From an uncultured Candidatus Saccharibacteria bacterium (GTDB taxonomy: Bacteria > Patescibacteriota > Dojkabacteria > GCA-002793355), in contig CAZGEO010000001.1 in the NCBI GenBank assembly GCA_964525295.1, forward strand, positions 572,314 to 636,313: 64,000 nucleotides of DNA. The letters run 5' to 3'. Shown one piece after another: positions 8,307 to 64,000 of the stretch. The stretch's first letter is position 1; every line of letters begins with the position of its first letter. The notes below the pieces were generated by a model. The model saw only the letters and a program-made list of their open reading frames with translations, searched no databases and was not told the DNA's origin. The translations under genes and the position numbers were made by a program.

Positions 8307-8368
8307 AATTGTAGCTTAGGTAGTCTCTCTTTCCTAGATTTTAACAGAAAAGGCGGTATCATCAACGT

Positions 8369-9085
8369 ATGAATCTAGAAAATCAAACTCAGAAAGACAT
8401 TTTGCGTCACATGATGTGGGTAAGTGAAATCAAATATAGTGATCTGCATAAACATTTCGAAAAACACGAGCTCTTTAATTATCACCTGCGTGAATTAGTT
8501 GCACAAGGGTATCTTGAAAAAACGGGCAGTATGTATAAATTAACGCAAACAGGGCGTCAAAAAGTATCATTTATGGATGAAGACGGTTCGGTTCAGCAAC
8601 AATTCAAGGTAAGCATGGCTGCGTGGGTCGTTCGTGAACATGAGGGGCATTGGGAAACCATTATGTTTACACGAAAAAAACATCCACAATTGGGGTGGAA
8701 ATCGATTATAACAGGGAAAATGAAATATGGTGAACCAATTGAAGATTGCTTGAAACGAGAACTTCAAGAGGAAGTTAACATTATTCCAACGAAATATTCA
8801 CTTATCGATGTTTCGCGTGTGTTTGTAAAAGATGAAAAGGGCGAGCTTCGTAACGATCTTATACTCTTCAGTTACGTTGTTACCGAGTGGCAAAATGAGC
8901 CGGTATTAACCGGAATTGAAGGGGAATACTTCTGGCAAAAGATTGATACCTTTGAAAAAGAGGTATCTCCAACCTTTGAATTCGGCTACAGCTTTTGGTT
9001 GCAAGGGATTCGAAAGTATTTGAAATCTCCGACTACGTATACGCCTGTTGTTTGGCATATTAACCCCGATAGAATGGCGTATTGA
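8369..9085 (+). CDS. Winged-HTH / NUDIX hydrolase fusion protein (paralog of 36628..37338)
   Basis: N-terminal wHTH (LFNYHLRELVAQGYLEK). Nudix box GKMKYGEPIEDCLKRELQEEVNI. Confidence 0.7.
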   Translation: MNLENQTQKDILRHMMWVSEIKYSDLHKHFEKHELFNYHLRELVAQGYLEKTGSMYKLTQTGRQKVSFMDEDGSVQQQFKVSMAAWVVREHEGHWETIMFTRKKHPQLGWKSIITGKMKYGEPIEDCLKRELQEEVNIIPTKYSLIDVSRVFVKDEKGELRNDLILFSYVVTEWQNEPVLTGIEGEYFWQKIDTFEKEVSPTFEFGYSFWLQGIRKYLKSPTTYTPVVWHINPDRMAY

Positions 9086-26147: not shown

Positions 26148-26569
26148 GGGGGTGACCGGCTTAGACGGTTGTTCATTGAAAGAAGTAGCCAAGCGGGCTG
26201 ATATCCCGTAAATCTATCAAAGCACCATAAAGTGCCAAGTCAAACCTTTCTGAGAAAGTCGCAGCTTTTTTGAACTCAGCAGTTAAGGCTTTTGCCTCAG
26301 TTGTTGCAGCTCCAAAGCTTGCAGTCTCACTCGTCTCTTAATGACGTAACTGGTTTCTCCTCCTTTGCATAACAAGCGGGAAACCAGGAGTAATAAGGTT
26401 TATGCCGACACGCTATCAAGCTCCGCTGGGGTAGAGTGTTGTACATGTGCGGGCGAGTATTCCTTTTTTGCTCGATTTTCAGGGGATACTTAGTACTCAA
26501 CTCGAGCTGTCTTGGGAGAGACTTCTTTTTAAGAAGAGCTGCACAGGGGTTCGATTCCCCTCACCTCCA
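26148..26569 (+). ncRNA. ssrA: tmRNA (transfer-messenger RNA)
   Basis: 5' GGGGGUGA pairs with 3' UCACCUCC to give a 7-bp acceptor stem with a G3:U wobble (tRNA-Ala identity), followed by a discriminator A. T-arm AGGGGUUCGAUUCCCCU. 5' GGCUUAGACGG resembles the GGAUUCGACGG box. Internal frame ...AAAGUC GCA GCU... is followed by UAAUGA stops and a CUGGUUUC/GAAACCAG helix. Confidence 0.65.
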
Positions 26570-27325
26570 TTTTTTCAACACTCTCGTTCGCTACAAAAAA
26601 GAAACCAGTTCTTTTTTGTTACGCTCACGATCCGTGTAGAAGAAAATGGAGCGAACGGGAGGGGTGAAAAATAGGAAAATGTTGGGGAAGCGAAACGCAA
26701 GCGAGAATGTACTGACGTACATTCGAACGAAGCGGGGGTCGAGGAGCGGAAAATTTTCTAGCGAAGCGACGGAAATGACCGCGAGGTGACCGATTCCCCT
26801 GACTTTTGAAAACGCTTCGAAAGAGTTTTTTATGACGTCGGCGACCATTACCCATTCGGGCAAAAAGAGGCTTTTCAAAACGATAATGTTCGATGCTATC
26901 GCCTGAAAGTATAACCTTATCGTTTACTGTGAATGGTAAAGAATCTTCTTGTGTTGCACTACTATCAAGCGAAGTAGTGCAGTCAGAAGCGCGAGCGCGT
27001 AGGGGCTCGCGCTCTTCTTCCTGCAAGCCATGAGAAACAATCGACTGTCTCTTTCCTTTTATTCTTGAGGAATTTGAGTCACTCGAAATTTTGCCCATAA
27101 GTAGTGTGCCTACACGAGTAGATCCAATGGATCATTTCTAATGTAGGGTGCCTAACCTTGAAGGCGGCTACTTACGGTCTGACAGTTCTTTTGAACAGCG
27201 TGATCTTTTTGTTAACTTGTTTTCTCTGGCATCATCACTCCTACCAGCAGAAGGCGCATTCGGCCTTGGGCCTTTATATATTACCCTGTTAAATTGTAAG
27301 CGATAAAATAATTTAGAATAGAGTA

Positions 27326-28399
27326 CTACACCCCAGTCATAACCTTGAATTTATAACGTGGTCTTAGCGGAGTAATGAAACTCCATTGAACGTGGTCTTC
27401 TTTTGCCAATCTTCCTGCAACTATTGAATGTGCTATTTGAATTTTATTCGCGAATTCTTTGATCGAAGCCAATGAGAAGATTCCTGATTGAATAAACTGT
27501 TCGTACATATCAGAGGGTATTAGTGTGTTTTTCGCAAATTCGTTGGCTTCTAATTCATGGGTTTGAGTATCATCCTGACTGATTTCATCAATAAAGTTTT
27601 TATTTTTGTCATGAATTATCAAGTGGCCCAACTCGTGAAAGAGTGTGAACCAGAATATATCTTCAGTGCAGTTACGCAATGATAAAATAATTACTGGTGT
27701 CTCATTTTGTATCCAAATCAATGCACCGTTAACAGGGGATCTCGGAATATTCGGCAACCCAATTAAAACTACACCCGCCTTTTTTAGAATTTCTTTTACT
27801 TGTTTATAGACTACTGTGATAGGCTGCTGTGATAGTTTTTTTATCTCATCGAGAGAGCGAGTTAACAAGGTTTTGTTGTATCTGTATTCTGGTAATGATT
27901 TGAGTGCAGCAATTTCTCCCTGTCTTAACCAAGCTTGCGTTTCAGGGATTGAAGCCTTAAGTTTATCTGCAATTCTGAATTCGATTGCTACATCCCTATC
28001 TATTACTGTTTTAAGTGAATTAACTGCGAAGAAATTCAGTAGGTTCCTAACTTTGGTTACTTGATTAATAGTTTTCTCTACCCAACCAAAGTTTGCCATA
28101 TCTTTATAAAAGGAAAAATGAGGAAGATATTTCTTTTCATCTAAAACATGGTTAAGGTCTTCTTCAATAGCAAGCGCGTGCTGATAATTGCTCTCAAGAT
28201 TAATCCAAAAGTCGGATGAGATTTCGAATATTCTAGATAGACGTATTGCAGTCTCGGGAGTAATAGATGCTTTCTCATTAATAATCATGTTCAGTTGCTT
28301 TCTGCTCAGACCAATACGTGCAGCGAGTTCAACCTGTGATAATCCATAAGCTATCATCGTTTCTTCAAGGATTGTCCCTGGATGTGTGATGTTGTTCAT
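27326..28399 (-). CDS. HigA-type HTH antitoxin fused to ImmA/IrrE (COG2856, DUF955) Zn-metallopeptidase domain
   Basis: N-terminal HPGTILEE...GLSQVELAARIGLSRKQLNMIINEKASITPETAIRLSRIFEISSDFWINLESNY matches the HigA/VapI HTH. C-terminal HEXXH (FHELGHLIIHD) in a DUF955 context. Confidence 0.7.
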   Translation of the reverse strand: MNNITHPGTILEETMIAYGLSQVELAARIGLSRKQLNMIINEKASITPETAIRLSRIFEISSDFWINLESNYQHALAIEEDLNHVLDEKKYLPHFSFYKDMANFGWVEKTINQVTKVRNLLNFFAVNSLKTVIDRDVAIEFRIADKLKASIPETQAWLRQGEIAALKSLPEYRYNKTLLTRSLDEIKKLSQQPITVVYKQVKEILKKAGVVLIGLPNIPRSPVNGALIWIQNETPVIILSLRNCTEDIFWFTLFHELGHLIIHDKNKNFIDEISQDDTQTHELEANEFAKNTLIPSDMYEQFIQSGIFSLASIKEFANKIQIAHSIVAGRLAKEDHVQWSFITPLRPRYKFKVMTGV

Positions 28400-32271: not shown

Positions 32272-32296
32272 ATTGATAATTAACAATTAATTTCAC
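32272..32296. repeat. 25-nt element ATTGATAATTAACAATTAATTTCAC abutting a stop codon (identical copy at 53051..53075)
   Basis: Exact 25/25 identity between two unrelated gene 3' ends; member of a wider AT-rich AATTGAAAATT / TTAATAATTAA motif family. Confidence 0.6.
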
Positions 32297-32871
32297 CTCC
32301 TCTTCTCCGTTGCCAAATTCTTGGCCCAGTCATTAACCTTGGTGTGGTAAACGGTAAGGGCGAGTTTTTTACCATATTCCGTCAAATACGTTTGGTTAAT
32401 CCAATCCTCATTATTTTCGAGCCATTCTTTCGCTTGTTGGTTGTTGTAAGTGAAAACTTGCTCTTGCAACAATATCATCTGAGCCATTCTATCGGCATCT
32501 TTAACACATTTTGCCTCTAACGATTCACGTTTCCCATACTCTTCAAGTAGCGTCTTGATATTTAGGTGATCTAATTCTTCTGGGAACATTTCAGCAATTG
32601 CCTCCTCTTCGTATGCTTTGACGTATCTTTTGTTAATCCAGGCAATATCACCTGTCCTGGTTTCTGCCGTGTCGTGCGACATTGCCATTAAAAGAACCTT
32701 TTCGATATTTGCGCCCTCGTGCTTTGCAATAATGTAAGCAATCCAGGTTACTAAGTAAGAATGAGTCGCAAGATTGTCGCTTAGGTCGTCGAGTAATAAA
32801 ACAGGGCGGTGGTTTCGAACTATCTTTCGCATTGTTGAAAGTTCAAACAAGAGGTTTGCTTCTTTTTTCAT
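32293..32871 (-). CDS. HD-domain 5'-deoxynucleotidase (YfbR-like)
   Basis: HSYLV...H...MSHDTAETRTGDI...DADR pattern of YfbR-type HD phosphohydrolases. Confidence 0.65.
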   Translation of the reverse strand: MKKEANLLFELSTMRKIVRNHRPVLLLDDLSDNLATHSYLVTWIAYIIAKHEGANIEKVLLMAMSHDTAETRTGDIAWINKRYVKAYEEEAIAEMFPEELDHLNIKTLLEEYGKRESLEAKCVKDADRMAQMILLQEQVFTYNNQQAKEWLENNEDWINQTYLTEYGKKLALTVYHTKVNDWAKNLATEKRR

Positions 32872-32908: not shown

Positions 32909-33466
32909 TTATACTTCTAGCAATTTCTTTACCGGTGGGTATACATTCGAGGTGAAAAGTTTTAATGCCTGCTTTTTTGTCACCCATCTTACTTCGACAT
33001 TCTCTTCGTCATCGGCAAGATATGGTTCACCGTGAAGATAATCACATAACCAATATGAAATAATTGCCTTAGTGTCTGGATGAATACGCTTTCCAATGGA
33101 TTTAACGGCCTTGCAATGAACACCAGTTTCTTCTAAACATTCAATTTCTGCACGAGTAGAGGAGCGTTCTTTGTATTTGATCCTTCCTGCGGGGAATTGC
33201 CAAGATAGTGAACCTTCTCGGACTCTTCGATGGAGAACGAGAACTTTATCGTTGTGCATAATAATTGCTACGGCAATTTTTAGTGGCTGCGTGCTTTCGG
33301 TTGATTTGTTAAGGTATTCGGTTAAGGCAGCGTGAGTGACAAGAAAATTCTTGCCTATTCTTATGGTCTTCAGTTCCCCTTTCGATATCTTTGAGAGTAT
33401 GGTGCGGTAGTTGAGATTTAACGCCGATGCTACTTGTTTTGGGGTATAAATTTCCGCTTTCTGCAT
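32909..33466 (-). CDS. Excisionase/MerR-type HTH / NUDIX hydrolase fusion protein
   Basis: N-terminal HTH_17-like (YTPKQVASALNLNYRTILSKISKGELKTIRIGKNFLVTHAALTEYL). Nudix box GRIKYKERSSTRAEIECLEETGV, with REx2EE degenerated to IEx2EE. Confidence 0.65.
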   Translation of the reverse strand: MQKAEIYTPKQVASALNLNYRTILSKISKGELKTIRIGKNFLVTHAALTEYLNKSTESTQPLKIAVAIIMHNDKVLVLHRRVREGSLSWQFPAGRIKYKERSSTRAEIECLEETGVHCKAVKSIGKRIHPDTKAIISYWLCDYLHGEPYLADDEENVEVRWVTKKQALKLFTSNVYPPVKKLLEV

Positions 33467-33544
33467 ATACCATTATATCACGGAGTGTATTTTAGTGTAT
33501 ATAGGTGATGTGTTATTTGTGGTCAGACATTGCTATAATCCTTC

Positions 33545-34119: not shown

Positions 34120-34596
34120 ATGATCACCATGCGAATAGCAAATATATCGGATATTCCGGCGGTGCAGAAATTGCATGCCGAACTCTTTACGTATGAAGAT
34201 GCGTTTTTGAAATTGTATAACAATAACTATGACGAATCGGCAGCGAGCACAAAATATTTCAAAAGCAGAATAAATCCAGAAAATGGGCGGATATTTCTTG
34301 CTGAAGAAGGCGGTAAAGTCGTTGGTTATTTGTGTGCAGGCAAAGGCGTAGAAGAGTACCGAGAGGTGCCGAGATATGCAGAAATCGAAAGTTTGTTCGT
34401 TGTGGAAAATTGTAGAGGCCAAAACGTCGGTAAATTGCTAATAAATGCCTTTAAGGAGTGGGCAAGAGCAGAAGGAATAAATCGCCTAAAAGTTGAAGTC
34501 GTGCACTCGAATGTTCGTTCATTGGCTTTTTACCAAAGGGAAGGTTTTTTACCAACATATTTGGAGCTCGAATCAATTGAAATTACGAGCCAGTAA
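34120..34596 (+). CDS. GNAT family N-acetyltransferase
   Basis: Acetyl-CoA motif A NCRGQNVGKLLINAF. Confidence 0.75.
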   Translation: MITMRIANISDIPAVQKLHAELFTYEDAFLKLYNNNYDESAASTKYFKSRINPENGRIFLAEEGGKVVGYLCAGKGVEEYREVPRYAEIESLFVVENCRGQNVGKLLINAFKEWARAEGINRLKVEVVHSNVRSLAFYQREGFLPTYLELESIEITSQ

Positions 34597-35466: not shown

Positions 35467-35976
35467 ATGGAGAAATTTTGGTATTACTATTATAATTGCT
35501 TCATGACACTAACAATTCGCCGCGCATCGGCCTCAGATATTCCGTCGCTTAGGCAGCTTGGTTATGAGCTTCAAGAAAATGAGCGATTATTGTGTCCTGA
35601 CCGTGCTCCGGCAGCGGAAATTGTCGATCAATACAATGCAATCACGCAGAGAGTGGTAGCGTCGGGAGAATGGGTAATTTTTGTCGCGCTTGATGGCGAC
35701 CAATTCGTTGGATATACCGCAGGTGCAATGAATGACCCCGAAGATGATTTGATTAATTTGGCACCAGGATTCCATGTTGACGATATAGTCGTTGCCAAAT
35801 CGCATCGTGGGCAGGGAATTGGTCGTCAGTTGCTTGATGCAATAGGTGAATATGCGAAAGAGCAAGGTGCGAAAAGTATCGAACTAAATGTGTTATCGGC
35901 GAATGTTGAGGCTCAAGCCTTTTACCGAAAGGTGGGCTTTCAAGATTATGAGTTGGTACTGAAGAAGAAGCTGTAG
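35467..35976 (+). CDS. GNAT family N-acetyltransferase
   Basis: VAKSHRGQGIGRQLL motif A. Alternative start at 35503 (MTLTIRR) is possible. Confidence 0.7.
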   Translation: MEKFWYYYYNCFMTLTIRRASASDIPSLRQLGYELQENERLLCPDRAPAAEIVDQYNAITQRVVASGEWVIFVALDGDQFVGYTAGAMNDPEDDLINLAPGFHVDDIVVAKSHRGQGIGRQLLDAIGEYAKEQGAKSIELNVLSANVEAQAFYRKVGFQDYELVLKKKL

Positions 35977-36015
35977 AAGAGTATAAAATTTGTAGTAAAT
36001 CTTCCAATTTTTCGA

Positions 36016-36615
36016 TTATTTGCCAGGCATTCTCTGATATTTTGAGCCAGCAAAGGTTATTCCTTTGCCTGTTACTTTAAAAAGCTCCCGGTCATTATCT
36101 CCATCGCCAATACAGTAGATATCAGTAATTTGTGTGTTGTTTTTCTCGCAATAATCTGTTAGTTGCATTACCTTTGCATTGTAATCATTTGCTACGGTTT
36201 TTATGTCACTAAGGTAATCATTTTCATCAAAAACAAAGTGGTTGTTGGCATACCAGTTTGAGATGCCAAGATCCTTAGCAACGTGTTCAACTAACAAATC
36301 CATAGAGCCACTAATCAAAAGTAGTTTGTGACCACGTGACAGCAATTGACTAATCACTTTTTGAGCCCCTTCAAGGTAGGTGTAGTTAAATAAGGTTTGT
36401 AGGATTGTTTGCTTTGTGTGTCTTCCGGAACTTTTATAAATTCTCAATATAATTTGTTGACCAGCTGCATCACTGATAATACCGCGCTTTCCCCAATCCA
36501 TTAGTATATTATCTTCCTGTTCTGTGACGCCAAGAGCAAGATTAAGATTAAGCCAGGCATTTTCTTTGATAAGTGTTTTGTTGAGGTCAAAGCAGATTGT
36601 CTTTGGAGCGTTCAT
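36016..36615 (-). CDS. HAD-superfamily hydrolase (subfamily IB-like phosphatase)
   Basis: Motif I variant CFDLNKTL near the N-terminus, motif IV GDGDND near the C-terminus. Confidence 0.6.
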   Translation of the reverse strand: MNAPKTICFDLNKTLIKENAWLNLNLALGVTEQEDNILMDWGKRGIISDAAGQQIILRIYKSSGRHTKQTILQTLFNYTYLEGAQKVISQLLSRGHKLLLISGSMDLLVEHVAKDLGISNWYANNHFVFDENDYLSDIKTVANDYNAKVMQLTDYCEKNNTQITDIYCIGDGDNDRELFKVTGKGITFAGSKYQRMPGK

Positions 36616-36627
36616 GAGTATATTATA

Positions 36628-37338
36628 CTAGTACTCCAGTTTCTCTTCATCAGGCTCAGTAATGTATGGCGTAAAAGCTGTAGGATTCGCAAGAAATTCT
36701 TTGATATGTGGCAAGCCTGTTTCAAATCCTTTTCTAAAAATTTTATCGAGTTCAAAGATTTTGTCGATATCGTGCCAAAAGTATTCACCTTCAATATTTT
36801 GTGAATTTGGCGAACCTTCCCATTTTGTTACAAATATGACAAAAAATACTCCATCACCGACTATTTCGCCGGTTTCATTTCTGATGATCTCACGATGAAT
36901 TCCTGCTACTTTGAATTCTGTTGGCACAATAGCTAGTTCTTCTTGTAATTCTCTTCGCATGTTATGTTCTAGTGATTCGCCCCATTTAAGCTTGCCAGTA
37001 ACGGCGCCAATGTAATCATAATGTGGATGCTTTTTTCTTCTGAACAGTAACATTTGCCAATTGCCCTCGTGATATCGCAATAAATCGATAAACATGCTGA
37101 CTTTGAACTGTTTTTGATACTGTCCATCTTCTTCCATCAGCGACACTTGTTGCCTACCTTCTGAAGAAAGTGAGTAGGAGCTGCCATTTTTTAAGATGAG
37201 CCCTTTCGCCACTAATTCTCTTAAATGATAATTGAATAAATCATGATTTCCGCTAGCTTTGTGTAATTCGCCATAGGTTAAACTCGGTGAAAACATAAGT
37301 TTGTTGAGTATTATTTTCCTTGTTTCTGCTTCTGTCAT
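36628..37338 (-). CDS. Winged-HTH / NUDIX hydrolase fusion protein (paralog of 8369..9085)
   Basis: LFNYHLRELVAKGLILK wHTH and Nudix box GKLKWGESLEHNMRRELQEELAI. Same architecture and length as the other copy, though the sequence has diverged. Confidence 0.7.
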   Translation of the reverse strand: MTEAETRKIILNKLMFSPSLTYGELHKASGNHDLFNYHLRELVAKGLILKNGSSYSLSSEGRQQVSLMEEDGQYQKQFKVSMFIDLLRYHEGNWQMLLFRRKKHPHYDYIGAVTGKLKWGESLEHNMRRELQEELAIVPTEFKVAGIHREIIRNETGEIVGDGVFFVIFVTKWEGSPNSQNIEGEYFWHDIDKIFELDKIFRKGFETGLPHIKEFLANPTAFTPYITEPDEEKLEY

Positions 37339-37474
37339 AATTACTTGTAATCGATTTGGATTTTTATCTCAAGTGAGGGTGTACTAACTAGTTTCTGTGC
37401 AAAGAGTAATGCCATATGCGTAAGTTCGGAGCGAATTATGTTGCGACTTTTGCGTACTGTGAGTATAATTTCGC

Positions 37475-38329: not shown

Positions 38330-38935
38330 ATGGAACCACTACACAAGGCGCAGCAGCTACTTTTAGAATTACTTGCAAAAAATGCTCAAGACCCGTTGAC
38401 AATTCGTGAATTGCAAAACAGAATAGGTGCTTCATCACCAAGTGTTGTTACTCACCATTTAAAGCAATTGCAGAAAAAAGGGTATTTAACTAGAGATCCG
38501 CACGATCCTCGCACGTATATTGTGCATGAAAAAACTGAATTACTTGGTGATATTGTCAGTTTGCCACTTTATGGTATGGCTCAATGTGGTCCTAACGGTA
38601 GTTTGCTTGATGGTGCACCAGTTGAATATGTACCAATTTCTAGGCAATTGTTAGGAACGTATTACGATAATTCATTTATGGTTAAAGCACGTGGTGATTC
38701 AATGGAACCACAAATTAAAGAAGGCGATCTTGTTATTGCAGTCAAGCGAAATCTGGCTCAATCGGGAGACATTGTTGTATGTGTTAATCATGAAAAAGTA
38801 CTTATTAAAAAATATGTCGAAAGTGAGAATATGGTACTGCTTCTTTCACTTAATCAGAATTATGATCCAATAATTCCTGCTGAAGACTTTCGCATCGAAG
38901 GGGTAGTGAAATCGGTATATTCGTATCAGCGTTAG
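38330..38935 (+). CDS. lexA: LexA repressor (S24 peptidase family)
   Basis: N-terminal wHTH (LTIRELQNRIGASSPSVVTHHLKQLQKKGYL). C-terminal S24 catalytic motifs GDSMEP and the Lys region (VLIKKYV). Confidence 0.85.
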   Translation: MEPLHKAQQLLLELLAKNAQDPLTIRELQNRIGASSPSVVTHHLKQLQKKGYLTRDPHDPRTYIVHEKTELLGDIVSLPLYGMAQCGPNGSLLDGAPVEYVPISRQLLGTYYDNSFMVKARGDSMEPQIKEGDLVIAVKRNLAQSGDIVVCVNHEKVLIKKYVESENMVLLLSLNQNYDPIIPAEDFRIEGVVKSVYSYQR

Positions 38936-61504: not shown

Positions 61505-64000
61505 TTATTTCGCGTATAAATTATAATATCCTTGTAAGGTAATATAGACGTAAGGCCCGCTATCACTGTTTGCCATATACATTCTTGAAAGATTTAATAC
61601 TTGTTCAATTTTTGGACCTTCTTTATTAAAATAATCGGGGTGACTTATATAAGTAATCATTCTTGGTCCACTGAATGTTTCGCCATTTGCGTTGTCTGCC
61701 ATTCGCTTTACCATTGCATCGACGGTAAATGCCCAAGAGTCCCCACCGTTATTAGGCATTTCGTAAATACCGATGCTGTTTGCCTTTGACGTGGATTTAT
61801 TAATATCAGTTTTTGAAACCCAGTAAGGTTGAGTTGTTGTTGAAAGTGACCAAGGTCCATTATATAGCGTACCTCTTCCAAATGATCGTGTTGAATAAGC
61901 TGTTCGTCCTGAGGTGTCGATTTTAATCCCAGCTTCTGAAGCAGCTTTGAGAACATTGGTACTTGAGAACCACCCTCCAGAGCGGAATGTTGTTGGTTTT
62001 GGTAGTCCTTTTTTGGGGAATTCTGCGACAGCCCAATTAAACATTTTTACGTGATCTTCGTAGGCATACTCAGAAATTGGAATATCGTATCCATCGGTTA
62101 GATTATTCCAGCCGGGAATTTCGAGTGGTGTAACGCCAATAGAGGTAAGCATATCTCGATACATATGCAAGTGAAGGGCTATTTCATCGCCGAATTTTTT
62201 GTATCCATCGTTAACGTAATTGACCATATTTTGGGCAACTGACTTACTTACAACGCTTGTATTCCATAATCGAGGGTTAAACATGTGGGTAATAACTAAC
62301 CCTGGATTGTTCGTTCTGATTCGTGCAATTGAGTCAAGAACGCCCTGATTCACGGCATATCCTTCCCAGTCTAGTGTCCAGGCAATATACACTGGATAAC
62401 TAACCCAATAATTTTTCTGATCACTGTAGACGATCGGATCAGTTCCTTCTTTTTTTAATGTCACGCCGTAGGTAACTGAGCGTTTTCCTGTTCCTTCATT
62501 GGCGAAATCGATGCTTACTGGCATCGTTATTGTTGACATTGCGGGAATGAACCCAGCAGGGAAGAGCTCTGAATGATCTAGGTTTACGCATTCAGGATTC
62601 TCGATTGCTAATTCTTTGTCATTTTCAGTTAATTTGATGACTCTTTGCGCATCTTCAAGGTAAAGTGATAAATCTTCACAGGTAACAGGCATCGTAAATA
62701 GAAATGCTTGAACGCTATTGTTCGGTGTATTTTTTACAAACCATTTCTTTCCTATGGTTTCAAATGGTTTAAATGCCCATTCTGTAATATCTTTGTTGAT
62801 AATGCCAAGTTTTGTACCGCTAGGTTCGGTTGTTTGAGTAATGTATGGAAGGTGCGTTTGTGGCGCAATTGATACAGTTTCGGTAAATGAAACTGCTATT
62901 CCTTCGAAACTTTCTTCTGTTGTAAAGTTCACAATAATATTGTTGTAGCCAAAATTTGCAAACTTCGTTTCAAGTTTCTTGACTCCGCCATTTTTAAGAA
63001 GTCCATATACAGAAATGTCTGATCCATTGGCATTCGTTTGAATATCGAGTGGATGAATGTCAACGTGTGCAGCACCTGCTTTGTAATCATCGTTAAATTT
63101 GATGAAAGCTGCTTTATATCCTAAGAATGGCCATTCATCTTTTCGCTCATATGAACTGCTGAGCATTCGAGAAACGCGTTCTTCATGTGAAATTGGGGTA
63201 GGGGTAATAAGTGGTTCAGTTGGTTTAACAGTACCAATTACTTTACCGATAGTAACGCTTTGCACAGTATAAATGAAAACTAGATGAAAAATGAAGAAAA
63301 GTATTGCTTGTTTTCCAACCCATTGTAAGCTTGTTGAAAGAATATTCTGTTTTTCACGTTCTAAAAGGGTAGCTAAATAAACGATTAGTGCAGAAACTGT
63401 AATACCCGACGCAATAAAGAAGAGTGTTGGGGGCCAACGAATTATATCAAGATCGTTTATGGTGAGCGAAATTTTCTCTAATGGAATTGCGATGAAGCTA
63501 ATCACTAACGTTGCAAGAATTACGCTGAGTGCCTCAATACCATAATCCTTTGGACTTTCGAGTTTCTTTGACCATCCGAGCCAAATACCAACGCCATAAA
63601 CAACGCCATAAGAGATTAATGGGAAGGTATGAAATGAGGAAGATCCGACAATTAATGACAACCAATAATTTGTGTTAATAGTTGCAGTATATTTTCCTAA
63701 AATAACGAAGAGTAGGCCAATAAGAAGAACCAGTAGTCCTCCAACAGAATGAGTCAGAATTTTCTTTGTAATGGTAATTCTTCTGAAAACGGCAATCAAT
63801 AAATAAGCAAAAATTGGAAGAATTGCGAGTGTCAAGAGGTATTCTTCGAGATAAATTGGTCCAGTGAATAGAGACAAAATATCCTTTTGTTGCATGAGTG
63901 TGTAAAACACCCCTAATCCTAAGTAAACAACGAAAAGACCGGCAGATCGCTTTAGTGTCTTTTTGAAATCAAGATGATCGTATCCGTAGCCAATGAGAAA
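61505..64000 (-). CDS. Large polytopic membrane protein with extracytoplasmic C-terminal domain (5' end outside window)
   Basis: ORF stays open upstream of the GTG at 63908-63910, through to the window edge. About 11 TM helices then an about 500-aa soluble domain (DWEG, LHLHMY motifs) of unclear family. Confidence 0.45.
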   Translation of the reverse strand, partial: FLIGYGYDHLDFKKTLKRSAGLFVVYLGLGVFYTLMQQKDILSLFTGPIYLEEYLLTLAILPIFAYLLIAVFRRITITKKILTHSVGGLLVLLIGLLFVILGKYTATINTNYWLSLIVGSSSFHTFPLISYGVVYGVGIWLGWSKKLESPKDYGIEALSVILATLVISFIAIPLEKISLTINDLDIIRWPPTLFFIASGITVSALIVYLATLLEREKQNILSTSLQWVGKQAILFFIFHLVFIYTVQSVTIGKVIGTVKPTEPLITPTPISHEERVSRMLSSSYERKDEWPFLGYKAAFIKFNDDYKAGAAHVDIHPLDIQTNANGSDISVYGLLKNGGVKKLETKFANFGYNNIIVNFTTEESFEGIAVSFTETVSIAPQTHLPYITQTTEPSGTKLGIINKDITEWAFKPFETIGKKWFVKNTPNNSVQAFLFTMPVTCEDLSLYLEDAQRVIKLTENDKELAIENPECVNLDHSELFPAGFIPAMSTITMPVSIDFANEGTGKRSVTYGVTLKKEGTDPIVYSDQKNYWVSYPVYIAWTLDWEGYAVNQGVLDSIARIRTNNPGLVITHMFNPRLWNTSVVSKSVAQNMVNYVNDGYKKFGDEIALHLHMYRDMLTSIGVTPLEIPGWNNLTDGYDIPISEYAYEDHVKMFNWAVAEFPKKGLPKPTTFRSGGWFSSTNVLKAASEAGIKIDTSGRTAYSTRSFGRGTLYNGPWSLSTTTQPYWVSKTDINKSTSKANSIGIYEMPNNGGDSWAFTVDAMVKRMADNANGETFSGPRMITYISHPDYFNKEGPKIEQVLNLSRMYMANSDSGPYVYITLQGYYNLYAK

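What the first reader, a model, noticed from the sequence alone, without database searches (positions are those of the whole stretch)
36016..37338. Second HTH-NUDIX module (wHTH type) paired with a HAD phosphatase; a paralog elsewhere at 8369-9085
The 236-aa wHTH-NUDIX protein here is a clear paralog of the 238-aa protein at 8369-9085. They share LFNYHLRELVA, KKHP and the Nudix box, and both are followed by a C-terminal extension. This copy is followed after 12 nt by a HAD-family phosphatase on the same strand, which mirrors the HTH-NUDIX plus HD pairing at about 33 kb. Three HTH-NUDIX fusions in 64 kb is a striking lineage-specific expansion. Two of them have phosphatase partners, suggesting a recurring two-gene module.
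Basis: partly seen in the sequence, partly recalled or inferred. Interest (0 to 1): 0.5.

Follow-up and report, generated by a model that had tools for sequence, protein, structure and literature searches.

The report
Self-regulated wHTH-Nudix gene, unlinked HAD neighbour
The two look-alike genes are true old paralogs from a widespread, unstudied family of small-genome (CPR) bacteria that fuses a DNA-binding domain to a nucleotide-cleaving Nudix enzyme, and each copy carries a conserved DNA element on its own promoter, whereas the phosphatase gene next door looks like a chance neighbour with its own promoter.

Summary
On the minus strand, 36628-37338 encodes a 236-aa wHTH+Nudix protein. It is 43% identical (E 2e-73) to the 238-aa protein at 8369-9085. 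A HAD-IB hydrolase gene (36016-36615) follows after 12 nt.

- The HAD partner is absent from all about 15 distinct orthologous wHTH-Nudix loci and from 6 of 7 other HAD loci.
- The 12-nt gap is TATAAT+6 nt. That is the register in which 25 of 57 window genes carry a -10 box, which suggests leaderless transcripts. The HAD gene therefore probably has its own promoter.
- The third HTH-Nudix (32909-33466) has an unrelated HTH_17 domain.
- A and B are an old duplication. B has its own 76% ortholog.

New here: every close ortholog and both window paralogs carry a conserved 22-nt element, [AG]G[TG]TAG-N5-C[CT]TCACTAGA[CT]. It ends 17-18 nt before a -10-like hexamer, so it overlaps the -35 box. I read it as the protein's own operator, which would make this an NrtR-like enzyme/regulator with reversed domain order and an intact Nudix box. 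Binding is not tested.

The HAD has DxNxT in place of DxDxT and a frameshifted C-terminus.

The parts
36628..37338 (-). wHTH-Nudix gene, copy A (236 aa). wHTH at residues 1-70, flexible linker about 66-77, Nudix fold 78-196 with box G115-x5-E121-x7-R129 E130..E133 E134, and a C-terminal helix at 202-217.
37368..37389 (-). Conserved 22-nt upstream element of copy A, AGTTAGTACACCCTCACTTGAG. Its 3' end forms the -35-like TTGAGA (37367-37372). This is the candidate auto-operator.
   Evidence: A PWM built only from non-window orthologs scores this site 22.0 bits, the top hit of the window on both strands. Its anatomy is shown.
37344..37349 (-). Weak -10-like hexamer TACAAG. It lies 17 nt after TTGAGA and 5 nt before the ATG, which is the leaderless geometry.
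   Evidence: It has 2 mismatches to TATAAT, so this is inferred rather than shown.
36622..36627 (-). Perfect TATAAT inside the 12-nt gap, 6 nt before the HAD ATG. This is the probable -10 box of a HAD promoter of its own.
   Evidence: Sequence. Positional enrichment of TATAAT at 5-8 nt before start codons is shown.
36016..36615 (-). HAD-IB (PSP-like) hydrolase gene, 199 aa. Motif I reads FDLNKTL (DxNxT). Its C-terminus is about 13 aa shorter than in the family.
   Evidence: Pfam and NCBIfam matches; alignment A2; closest solved structure MjPSP 1f5s, E 2e-26; AF2 pLDDT 92.8 with a weak tail.
35984..36043 (-). Relic of the family C-terminus (KISENAWQIIEKLEDLLQIL), encoded out of frame after the A4 run at 36040-36043. 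This indicates a 1-nt deletion, either a real frameshift or an assembly error.
   Evidence: Translation. The DNA alignment to the 72% ortholog L020 is, and the family consensus SKIxxxAWKVIxxLxDLKxIL is.
8369..9085 (+). wHTH-Nudix gene, copy B (238 aa), an old paralog of copy A.
   Evidence: It is 43% identical to A, E 2e-73, and has its own ortholog P0103 at 76%.
8318..8339 (+). Conserved upstream element of copy B, AGGTAGTCTCTCTTTCCTAGAT. It ends 29 nt before the ATG, exactly as in copy A. A -10 box TATCAT at 8357-8362 follows, 6 nt before the ATG.
   Evidence: It scores 15.4 bits with the non-window PWM, the second-best hit in the window, where 0.055 hits at or above that score are expected.
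32909..33466 (-). Third HTH-Nudix (185 aa). It has an HTH_17 (excisionase/MerR-type) N-terminus and is an independent fusion, not a paralog of A or B.
   Evidence: Pfam; NCBIfam 'excise' domain; no similarity to A.
32293..32871 (-). HD_3/YfbR-like phosphohydrolase gene, 37 nt downstream of the third HTH-Nudix. It has its own TATAAT 8 nt before the ATG.

Best explanation
The window comes from a Candidatus Dojkabacteria-like (CPR/Patescibacteria) genome. Genes 36628-37338 and 8369-9085 are two anciently diverged paralogs. They belong to a widespread, uncharacterised CPR family of about 235-aa proteins. Each protein joins an N-terminal winged-helix DNA-binding domain, through a flexible linker, to a MutT/MTH1-like Nudix hydrolase with an intact catalytic box.

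Each gene is a stand-alone unit with its own promoter. That promoter carries a family-specific 22-bp element (GTTAG-N6-CTCACTAGAC) whose 3' end is the -35 hexamer.

I infer the following mechanism. The protein binds this element through its invariant recognition helix (LFNYHLRELV) and regulates its own transcription, most simply by occluding the -35 box. The nucleotide bound or hydrolysed by the Nudix domain would modulate DNA binding. This is the logic of NrtR, but with the domain order reversed and catalysis retained.

The HAD-IB gene 12 nt downstream is a separate gene. It is a PSP-like fold with DxNxT in place of DxDxT, lacks the PSP specificity residue Glu20, and has a frameshifted C-terminus. 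It very probably has its own leaderless-type promoter, whose TATAAT lies in the gap. The juxtaposition is specific to this lineage and is not a conserved module.

Shown here: paralogy, domain architecture, catalytic-box conservation, the conserved promoter-linked element, lack of conserved synteny with HAD, and the -10 box in the gap. Inferred: DNA binding by the protein itself, the direction of regulation, the ligand, and separate transcription of the HAD gene.
For: Paralogy.

Domains.

Family conservation: L34 F35 Y37 H38 L39 L42 in the recognition helix are invariant, as are K103 H104 P105 and R129 E130 E133 E134.

Family size: 677 clusters at E<=1e-10, and at least 150 of them span both domains.

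The element:
- It is seen in the upstream regions of all close orthologs.
- Across 289 kb scanned on both strands, every hit above 20 bits lies upstream of a wHTH-Nudix gene on the same strand. This includes the held-out site in L005 (26.9 bits). The next-best hit is 15.6 bits.
- Leave-one-out scores are 12.7-33.1 bits.
- With a PWM built from non-window sites only, the window's top two hits are the two paralog promoters. 0.055 hits at or above 15.4 bits are expected per window.
- A -10-like hexamer lies 17-18 nt after the element in all 14 loci. The element-to-ATG distance falls into two classes, 29-31 nt and 48-55 nt (one outlier, L005, 118 nt).
- The flanking genes differ between loci, so the conservation is not inherited synteny.

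HAD independence: for synteny; for the -10 register.
Against: - No binding data exist. The element is only weakly palindromic (TAGT-N8-ACTA) and could be the site of another factor or an unusual promoter.
- Copy A's -10 hexamer (TACAAG) is poor.
- Copy B's element scores only 15.4 bits. Two other window hits at 13 bits (27136-27157 and 63859-63880) exceed the 0.145 expected and remain unexplained.
- L003 orthologs carry only a variant, GTTAGTGGTCACTAAC (10.2 bits).
- Distant Saccharibacteria homologs lack the element, and some sit inside operons.
- No terminator separates the Nudix and HAD genes, so read-through co-transcription cannot be excluded.
- The closest HAD ortholog (L020) does sit beside a wHTH-family gene. 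Some functional link is therefore possible.
Confidence: 0.5

Rival explanations
1. wHTH-Nudix and HAD form a co-transcribed two-gene module that acts in sequence on a nucleotide: Nudix cleaves NTP or NDP-X to NMP, and the phosphatase converts NMP to nucleoside. The HTH_17-Nudix + HD pair at 33 kb would be a parallel case.
For: - The gap is 12 nt on the same strand, with no terminator-like site between the genes.
- The closest HAD ortholog (72% identical, L020) is also adjacent to a wHTH-family gene.
- HD_3/YfbR-like 5'-nucleotidase-type genes lie next to wHTH-Nudix genes in L013, L018 and L019, and next to the HTH_17-Nudix in the window.
- Pyrophosphatase followed by 5'-nucleotidase is a biochemically sensible sequence. 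That is general knowledge of MutT/MazG plus YfbR-type pathways and was not tested here.
Against: - There is no HAD gene near any of about 15 distinct close-ortholog loci, and 6 of 7 other HAD loci lack a wHTH-Nudix neighbour.
- L020 has the opposite gene order.
- The gap holds a perfect -10 box in this genome's leaderless register. Four other closely spaced same-strand pairs (gaps 19-37 nt) show the same.
- The HAD lacks the general-acid Asp (DxNxT) and has a truncated C-terminus.
Confidence: 0.15
2. The wHTH domain does not regulate transcription. In this model the protein is a nucleic-acid-directed Nudix enzyme, for example an RppH/NudC-like RNA 5'-end pyrophosphohydrolase or decapping enzyme that uses the winged helix to hold RNA or DNA. 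The conserved upstream element would then be bound by another factor, or would be a special promoter.
For: - The Nudix box is fully intact, unlike many NrtR regulators (PMC2330246).
- The genome appears rich in leaderless mRNAs, whose 5' ends matter for translation.
- The element is not a clean palindrome.
Against: - The element travels with the gene through changing genomic contexts and is found nowhere else in 289 kb. That is the usual signature of autoregulation.
- The most conserved stretch of the whole protein is the predicted recognition helix.
- MutT- and MTH1-type matches score as well as or better than RppH.
Confidence: 0.15
3. The protein is a pure regulator. The Nudix domain would only sense a ligand, as in most NrtR proteins, and would control a wider regulon than its own gene.
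For: - NrtR and AraR provide a precedent (PMC2330246; PDB 3gz5 and 5bs6 appear among the matches).
- Two sub-threshold extra element hits occur in the window, at 13 bits.
Against: - The catalytic residues R129, E130, E133 and E134 are invariant across the family. In NrtR, an intact signature correlates with catalytic activity (PMC2330246).
- No strong second site exists in the window or in the loci flanks.
Confidence: 0.1

Closest known systems
NrtR family (Nudix-related transcriptional regulators; S. oneidensis SO1979, Synechocystis Slr1690, B. thetaiotaomicron AraR)
   Same: A Nudix-fold domain is fused to a winged-helix DNA-binding domain in a single polypeptide of about 230 aa. In this family a nucleotide-derived ligand (ADP-ribose) weakens DNA binding, and operators lie in promoter regions (PMC2330246). 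NrtR and AraR structures appear among the structural and sequence matches.
   Different: - The domain order is reversed here: wHTH at the N-terminus, Nudix at the C-terminus.
- The wHTH is of the DUF7347/HTH_45 type.
- The Nudix box is intact and invariant.
- The Nudix domain is closer to MutT/MTH1 than to ADPR pyrophosphatases.
- The conserved element is not the 21-bp GT-N7-AC palindrome.
- No NAD genes lie nearby.
MutT/MTH1-type Nudix NTP pyrophosphohydrolases (closest solved: B. halodurans 'MutT' 3fk9; human MTH1)
   Different: Those enzymes have no DNA-binding domain. The substrate of the present family is unknown.
Phosphoserine phosphatase of M. jannaschii (1f5s) / HAD-IB subfamily, for the downstream gene
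   Same: The alignment is full-length, E 2e-26. Motifs II and IV (GDGDND) are present. TIGR01488 HAD-IB scores above its cut-off.
   Different: - The SerB equivalog model scores 73 bits, below its 144-bit cut-off.
- Motif I is DxNxT, nearly invariant in this subfamily.
- PSP Glu20 aligns with an invariant Asn.
- The window copy has lost the terminal helix through a frameshift.
YfbR-like HD_3 5'-deoxynucleotidases, for the recurrent neighbour
   Same: HD_3/YfbR-like Pfam matches are found at window 32293-32871 and in L013, L018 and L019, next to HTH-Nudix genes.
   Different: The NCBIfam 5'-deoxynucleotidase model scores far below its cut-off (35.6 against 122 bits). The adjacency is seen in only a minority of loci.

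Membership tests
Nudix hydrolase superfamily | Nudix box GX5EX7REUXEEXGU and a Pfam PF00293 match above the gathering score | tested here: met
   A reads GKLKWGESLEHNMRRELQEELAI and B reads GKMKYGEPIEDCLKRELQEEVNI. Only the penultimate G is replaced, by A in copy A and N in copy B. PF00293 scores 46.3 and 43.8 bits against a cut-off of 21.1.
NrtR family | [quoted passage not shown] | tested here: not met
   The order is reversed: wHTH at residues 1-70 and Nudix at 78-196.
NrtR family | 21-bp palindromic operator with a GT-N7-AC core upstream of NAD or pentose genes (PMC2330246) | tested here: not met
   The conserved element is GTTAG-N6-CTCACTAGAC and is found only upstream of the gene itself. 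No NAD genes lie in the neighbourhoods.
NrtR family | ADP-ribose-sensitive DNA binding | not testable with these tools
   This needs EMSA with purified protein.
MutT (8-oxo-dGTPase) equivalog | NCBIfam TIGR00586 / PRK10776 score above the curated cut-off | tested here: not met
   The scores are 23-32 bits against cut-offs of 98-148. The resemblance is at the level of fold only.
HAD superfamily, subfamily IB | Pfam HAD or TIGR01488 above cut-off, with motifs II (S/T), III (K) and IV (GDxxxD) | tested here: met
   PF12710 scores 50.5 bits against 27, and TIGR01488 scores 69.6 against 45. The LISGS, K148 and GDGDND motifs are conserved.
HAD phosphatases (canonical) | Motif I DxDx(T/V), with the second Asp acting as general acid/base | tested here: not met
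   The motif reads FDLNKTL. N12 is nearly invariant in 26 family members, and only P0082 has Asp.
Phosphoserine phosphatase SerB | TIGR00338 above cut-off, plus the substrate-specificity residue Glu20 of MjPSP | tested here: not met
   TIGR00338 scores 73.4 bits against 144.15. Glu20 aligns with an invariant Asn.
Conserved two-gene operon (Nudix + phosphatase module) | Adjacency conserved across orthologs | tested here: not met
   None of about 15 distinct wHTH-Nudix loci has a HAD neighbour. One of 7 other HAD loci has a wHTH-family neighbour, in the opposite order.
Conserved two-gene operon (Nudix + phosphatase module) | No promoter and no terminator between the genes | tested here: inconclusive
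   There is no terminator. A perfect TATAAT lies 6 nt before the HAD ATG, in the register used by 25 of 57 genes. Transcript data are needed to settle this.

The most novel reading that the evidence does not exclude
A CPR-wide family of 'reverse NrtR' proteins, in which an N-terminal wHTH is fused to a catalytically active MutT-like Nudix domain. These would be trigger enzymes: they would both destroy a nucleotide (damaged, signalling or cap-like) and use its occupancy to control their own leaderless promoter, through a family-specific operator that overlaps the -35 box. If true, this would be one of the first predicted regulator-operator pairs in Dojkabacteria.
Probability: 0.4. Interest if true: 0.55.

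Novelty: new variant of a known kind. Interest (0 to 1): 0.4.

Why it matters
Almost nothing is known about transcriptional regulation in CPR/Patescibacteria. A regulator family that can be paired by sequence alone with a conserved site on its own promoter gives a directly testable regulator-operator pair. The test needs only an EMSA and a nucleotide ligand screen.

It would also extend the Nudix-regulator idea of NrtR to an independent fusion with the opposite domain order and retained catalysis.

There is a practical lesson for annotation as well. In this genome a short same-strand gap does not imply an operon, because many genes carry a -10 box 5-6 nt before the ATG. Operon-based function transfer is therefore risky here.

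The HAD pairing, which was the headline of the finding, is ordinary.

Tried and rejected
- **Inverted repeats.** A search of the two upstream regions gave nothing useful.
- **Rfam.** A scan of the whole window found only a tmRNA and no leader RNA near either gene.
- **Short core motif.** CTCACTAGA is not enriched in the window (10 matches with at most 1 mismatch against 9.7 expected). Only the full 22-nt model is specific.
- **LexA box.** I considered that the element might be a LexA box, because it resembles the Xanthomonas TTAG-N6-TACTA type (recalled from memory) and lexA lies at 38330. I rejected this because the spacing differs and the lexA promoter region does not score with the PWM.
- **Alternative sigma promoter.** I considered sigma-54 or ECF types. 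I rejected this because a sigma-70-like -10 hexamer sits 17-18 nt downstream in all loci.
- **Weaker PWM hits.** The hit at 27136-27157 lies upstream of a 157-aa protein with no Pfam match, and the hit at 63859-63880 lies inside an 801-aa ORF. Neither led further.
- **Distant homologs.** The Saccharibacteria loci L006, L007 and L017-L019 do not carry the element.
- **Tool failures.** The look-up of the window's own HAD protein failed, and the afdb50 fold library was unavailable.
- **Literature.** I found no paper on wHTH-Nudix in Patescibacteria and none describing leaderless promoters in Patescibacteria.
Full report
**1. Observation.**
All genes of the finding lie on the minus strand.
- wHTH-Nudix: 36628-37338, 236 aa.
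- HAD: 36016-36615, 199 aa.
- Gap between them: 12 nt, TATAATATACTC.

BLASTP of the 236-aa protein against the 238-aa protein at 8369-9085 gives 43% identity over 235 residues, E 2e-73. Both proteins match Pfam NUDIX above the gathering score. Both also match the winged-helix family DUF7347 at the N-terminus. That match is above Pfam's cut-off in copy B (30.3 bits) but not in the whole copy A protein (24.6 bits); copy A's N-terminal domain scanned alone scores 28.3 bits.

The Nudix boxes are intact except for the penultimate Gly:
- copy A: GKLKWGESLEHNMRRELQEELAI
- copy B: GKMKYGEPIEDCLKRELQEEVNI

The pair near 33 kb is real. It consists of HTH_17+NUDIX at 32909-33466 and HD_3/YfbR-like at 32293-32871.

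**2. What the wHTH-Nudix protein is.**
A word-index search found 35 close relatives at 47-66% identity. The named ones are from Candidatus Dojkabacteria. Genome and metagenome scans added loci labelled Dojkabacteria and Saccharibacteria.

A profile search of 1.84 billion cluster representatives found 1686 hits at E<=1e-3 and 677 at E<=1e-10. At least 150 clusters of about 230-240 aa matched across both domains. The architecture is therefore widespread, and the few source names attached to its members are Dojkabacteria and Saccharibacteria, both CPR lineages. Sources annotate it only as 'NUDIX domain-containing protein' or as 'ADP-ribose pyrophosphatase/predicted transcriptional regulator'.

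The following residues are invariant across 33 sequences:
- L34 F35 Y37 H38 L39 L42, the LFNYHL..L stretch;
- E70 D71 in the linker;
- K103 H104 P105;
- R129 E130 E133 E134, the catalytic Nudix residues;
- E183 G184 W188.

AlphaFold2 (pLDDT 86) gives the following layout:
- a canonical wHTH, with helix 1 at 3-15, helix 2 at 22-26, recognition helix at 32-44 and wing at 48-57;
- a low-confidence linker;
- a Nudix fold at 78-196;
- a packed C-terminal helix at 202-217.

**3. Paralogy and 'expansion'.**
Copy B has its own ortholog, P0103, at 76% identity. In a neighbour-joining tree, B+P0103 is sister to the whole clade of copy-A orthologs. The duplication is therefore older than the sampled diversification of the A clade.

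Multiple copies per genome are also seen elsewhere. L003 has two copies and L019 has a tandem pair.

The third window protein (32909-33466) has an excisionase/MerR-type HTH_17 domain and no significant pairwise similarity to A (E 0.05). It is an independent fusion. 'Three HTH-Nudix fusions' is factually right, but they represent two unrelated architectures.

**4. Is Nudix+HAD a module?**
I recovered 19 loci by pattern scan and more by exact-protein look-ups. phmmer with the window HAD found no HAD homolog in any wHTH-Nudix locus. The neighbours of the orthologs vary: SOD upstream in one subclade, NusA/DnaJ in another, HxlR in another. The downstream gene is usually convergent.

Conversely, HAD orthologs of 51-58% identity stand alone in varied contexts. 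The one exception is the closest HAD ortholog, L020 at 72% identity. There the HAD is followed, not preceded, by a gene whose 97-aa N-terminal fragment belongs to the wHTH family (E 1e-10 to 1e-15).

Adjacency is thus limited to the two closest HADs, and in those two the gene order differs.

**5. Is the HAD co-transcribed?**
No terminator-like site lies between the genes. However, the window shows a striking promoter geometry.
- 25 of 57 confident genes have a TATAAT-like hexamer (at most 1 mismatch) ending 5-8 nt before the start codon. Sixteen of them are at exactly 5 nt. About 0.45 are expected per position.
- Shine-Dalgarno motifs are rare.

This is the signature of leaderless transcription. 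The 12-nt gap is TATAAT+ATACTC+ATG, a perfect -10 box in that register. Its -35 match (3 of 6) is typical for these promoters, whose median is also 3 of 6.

Four other closely spaced same-strand pairs, with gaps of 19-37 nt, also show this. One of them is the HD gene after the HTH_17-Nudix. In this genome a short gap is not evidence of an operon. Transcript data are still needed.

**6. A conserved promoter-linked element (new).**
Lining up the upstream regions of the orthologs revealed a gap-free 22-nt motif, [AG]G[TG]TAG-N5-C[CT]TCACTAGA[CT].

A PWM of 12 sites (29 bits) was scanned over the window plus 32 loci, 289 kb on both strands. All hits above 20 bits lay upstream of wHTH-Nudix genes on the coding strand, one per locus. 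This included a site in L005 that was not used for training (26.9 bits). The next-best hit anywhere scored 15.6 bits. Leave-one-out scores are 12.7-33.1 bits.

With a PWM built only from non-window sites, the two best hits in the 64-kb window are 37368-37389(-) at 22.0 bits and 8318-8339(+) at 15.4 bits. These are the promoters of the two paralogs. Both elements end exactly 29 nt before the ATG. In Markov-simulated windows, 0.055 hits at or above 15.4 bits are expected.

In all 14 distinct loci a -10-like hexamer follows the element after 17-18 nt. Examples are GATAAT, TATAAT, CATAAT, TATCAT, TACTAT and, weakly, TACAAG in copy A. The last bases of the element (TAGACn / TTGAGA / TAGATT) are therefore the -35 hexamer. 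The element-to-ATG distance falls into two classes, 29-31 nt (leaderless) and 48-55 nt (short leader), apart from L005, where it is 118 nt.

The proteins are only 54-66% identical and the flanking genes differ. The conservation therefore reflects selection rather than shared ancestry of the surrounding DNA.

The element contains a weak inverted repeat, TAGT-N8-ACTA. An ortholog group in L003 has a perfect palindrome variant, GTTAGTG-GT-CACTAAC.

The most conserved part of the protein is the predicted recognition helix, which fits a conserved DNA target. I infer autoregulation by binding over the -35 box. This is an inference, and no binding was tested.

**7. Comparison with known systems.**
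NrtR regulators (PMC2330246) also fuse a Nudix domain to a wHTH, and ADP-ribose weakens their DNA binding. They differ from the present family in several ways:
- the Nudix domain is N-terminal and the wHTH C-terminal;
- the Nudix signature is often degenerate;
- they bind 21-bp GT-N7-AC palindromes upstream of NAD genes.

The present family fails these membership tests. It is best described as an independent, reverse-order analogue with retained catalytic residues.

No paper on such proteins in Patescibacteria was found.

**8. The HAD gene.**
It is a HAD-IB member: TIGR01488 scores 69.6 bits against a cut-off of 45. Its closest solved relative is M. jannaschii phosphoserine phosphatase, 1f5s (E 2e-26).

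It is not a SerB equivalog (73 bits against a 144-bit cut-off). PSP Glu20 aligns with an invariant Asn. Motif I is FDLNKTL, so the general-acid Asp is replaced by Asn in 25 of 26 family members. From general HAD enzymology, I infer either a substrate with a good leaving group or a slow enzyme.

The window copy ends 12-13 residues early. The family C-terminus (SKIxxxAWKVIxxLxDLKxIL) is encoded out of frame as KISENAWQIIEKLEDLLQIL after the A4 run at 36040-36043. That means a 1-nt deletion relative to L020. Even the restored frame lacks the ancestral stop codon.

AF2 folds the rest of the protein confidently (pLDDT 92.8), with a weak tail. Whether the frameshift is real or an assembly error cannot be decided here.

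**9. Verdict.**
The 'module' interpretation is mostly not supported.

What is really there is a stand-alone, probably self-regulated wHTH-Nudix gene of a large uncharacterised CPR family, its old paralog, and an unrelated HAD neighbour with its own promoter.

A looser Nudix-with-5'-nucleotidase-like (HD_3) association recurs in L013, L018, L019 and at 33 kb. It deserves a proper statistical test.

My approximate confidence in each claim:

| Claim | Confidence |
|---|---|
| Paralogy of A and B | about 1.0 |
| No conserved HAD module | about 0.8 |
| HAD has its own promoter | about 0.6 |
| Element is the protein's own operator | about 0.5 |

Noticed in passing
whole window; examples 37464-37469 (UbiA), 36622-36627 (HAD), 33472-33477 region (HTH_17-Nudix): 25 of 57 genes have a TATAAT-like hexamer ending 5-8 nt before the start codon (16 at exactly 5 nt; about 0.45 expected per position), and almost none has a Shine-Dalgarno motif. 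The genome seems to rely heavily on leaderless mRNAs, including for genes only 12-37 nt downstream of a same-strand neighbour.
   Followed up: partly
window 36016-36615 (-), residues 9-15: The HAD-IB subfamily has motif I FDLNKTL (DxNxT), nearly invariant in 26 members. The PSP specificity residue Glu20 is replaced by an invariant Asn, so this is an atypical HAD whose chemistry is unclear.
   Followed up: partly
window 35984-36043 (-): The family-consensus C-terminus of the HAD is encoded out of frame after an A4 run at 36040-36043. This is a 1-nt deletion relative to the 72% ortholog, and the restored frame has no stop codon until 35753. It is either a real truncation or an assembly error.
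   Followed up: partly
L013 48-626(-), L018 2600-3274(+), L019 4454-5134(-); window 32293-32871(-): HD_3/YfbR-like phosphohydrolase genes lie directly beside wHTH-Nudix or HTH_17-Nudix genes in four unrelated loci. This is a possible Nudix plus 5'-nucleotidase functional link.
   Followed up: partly
L020 2-382(-) and 1179-1469(+): The closest HAD ortholog has two notable flanking genes. One is an XRE-HTH protein fused to a canonical HAD (FVFDLDDTL). The other is a distant wHTH-family gene whose upstream region has TTTACTAGAC ending 29 nt before its ATG.
   Followed up: partly
window 27136-27157 (-) and 63859-63880 (-): There are two sub-threshold matches to the 22-nt element, at 13.0 and 13.1 bits, where 0.145 hits at or above 13 bits are expected per window. 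The first lies 37 nt upstream of a 157-aa gene with no Pfam match. The second lies inside an 801-aa ORF.
   Followed up: partly
window 36628-37338 (-): The public protein for this gene (P0001) is called 14 residues short, at 222 aa. The conserved N-terminus (ILNKLMF) and the promoter geometry both support the 236-aa start at 37338.
   Followed up: yes
window 26148-26572 (+): A tmRNA gene, Rfam RF00023, at 78 bits.
   Followed up: no
window 38330-38935 (+) and 27326-28399 (-): A LexA homolog (LexA_DNA_bind + Peptidase_S24) and an IrrE-like HTH_3 + Peptidase_M78 protein. These are two different DNA-damage-type regulator architectures in a single 64-kb stretch of a small genome.
   Followed up: no
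window 34120-34596 (+) and 35467-35976 (+): Two GNAT acetyltransferase paralogs (phmmer E 7.5e-14) flank a 268-aa gene with no Pfam match. The second converges on the HAD gene with about 40 nt between their stop codons.
   Followed up: no
L019 5233-5916 and 5977-6660 (+): A tandem pair of distant wHTH-Nudix genes that share a near-identical stretch just before the ATG (TACAATTTGACTCAAAT / TATAATCTGACTCAAAT). This may be their own promoter or operator.
   Followed up: no
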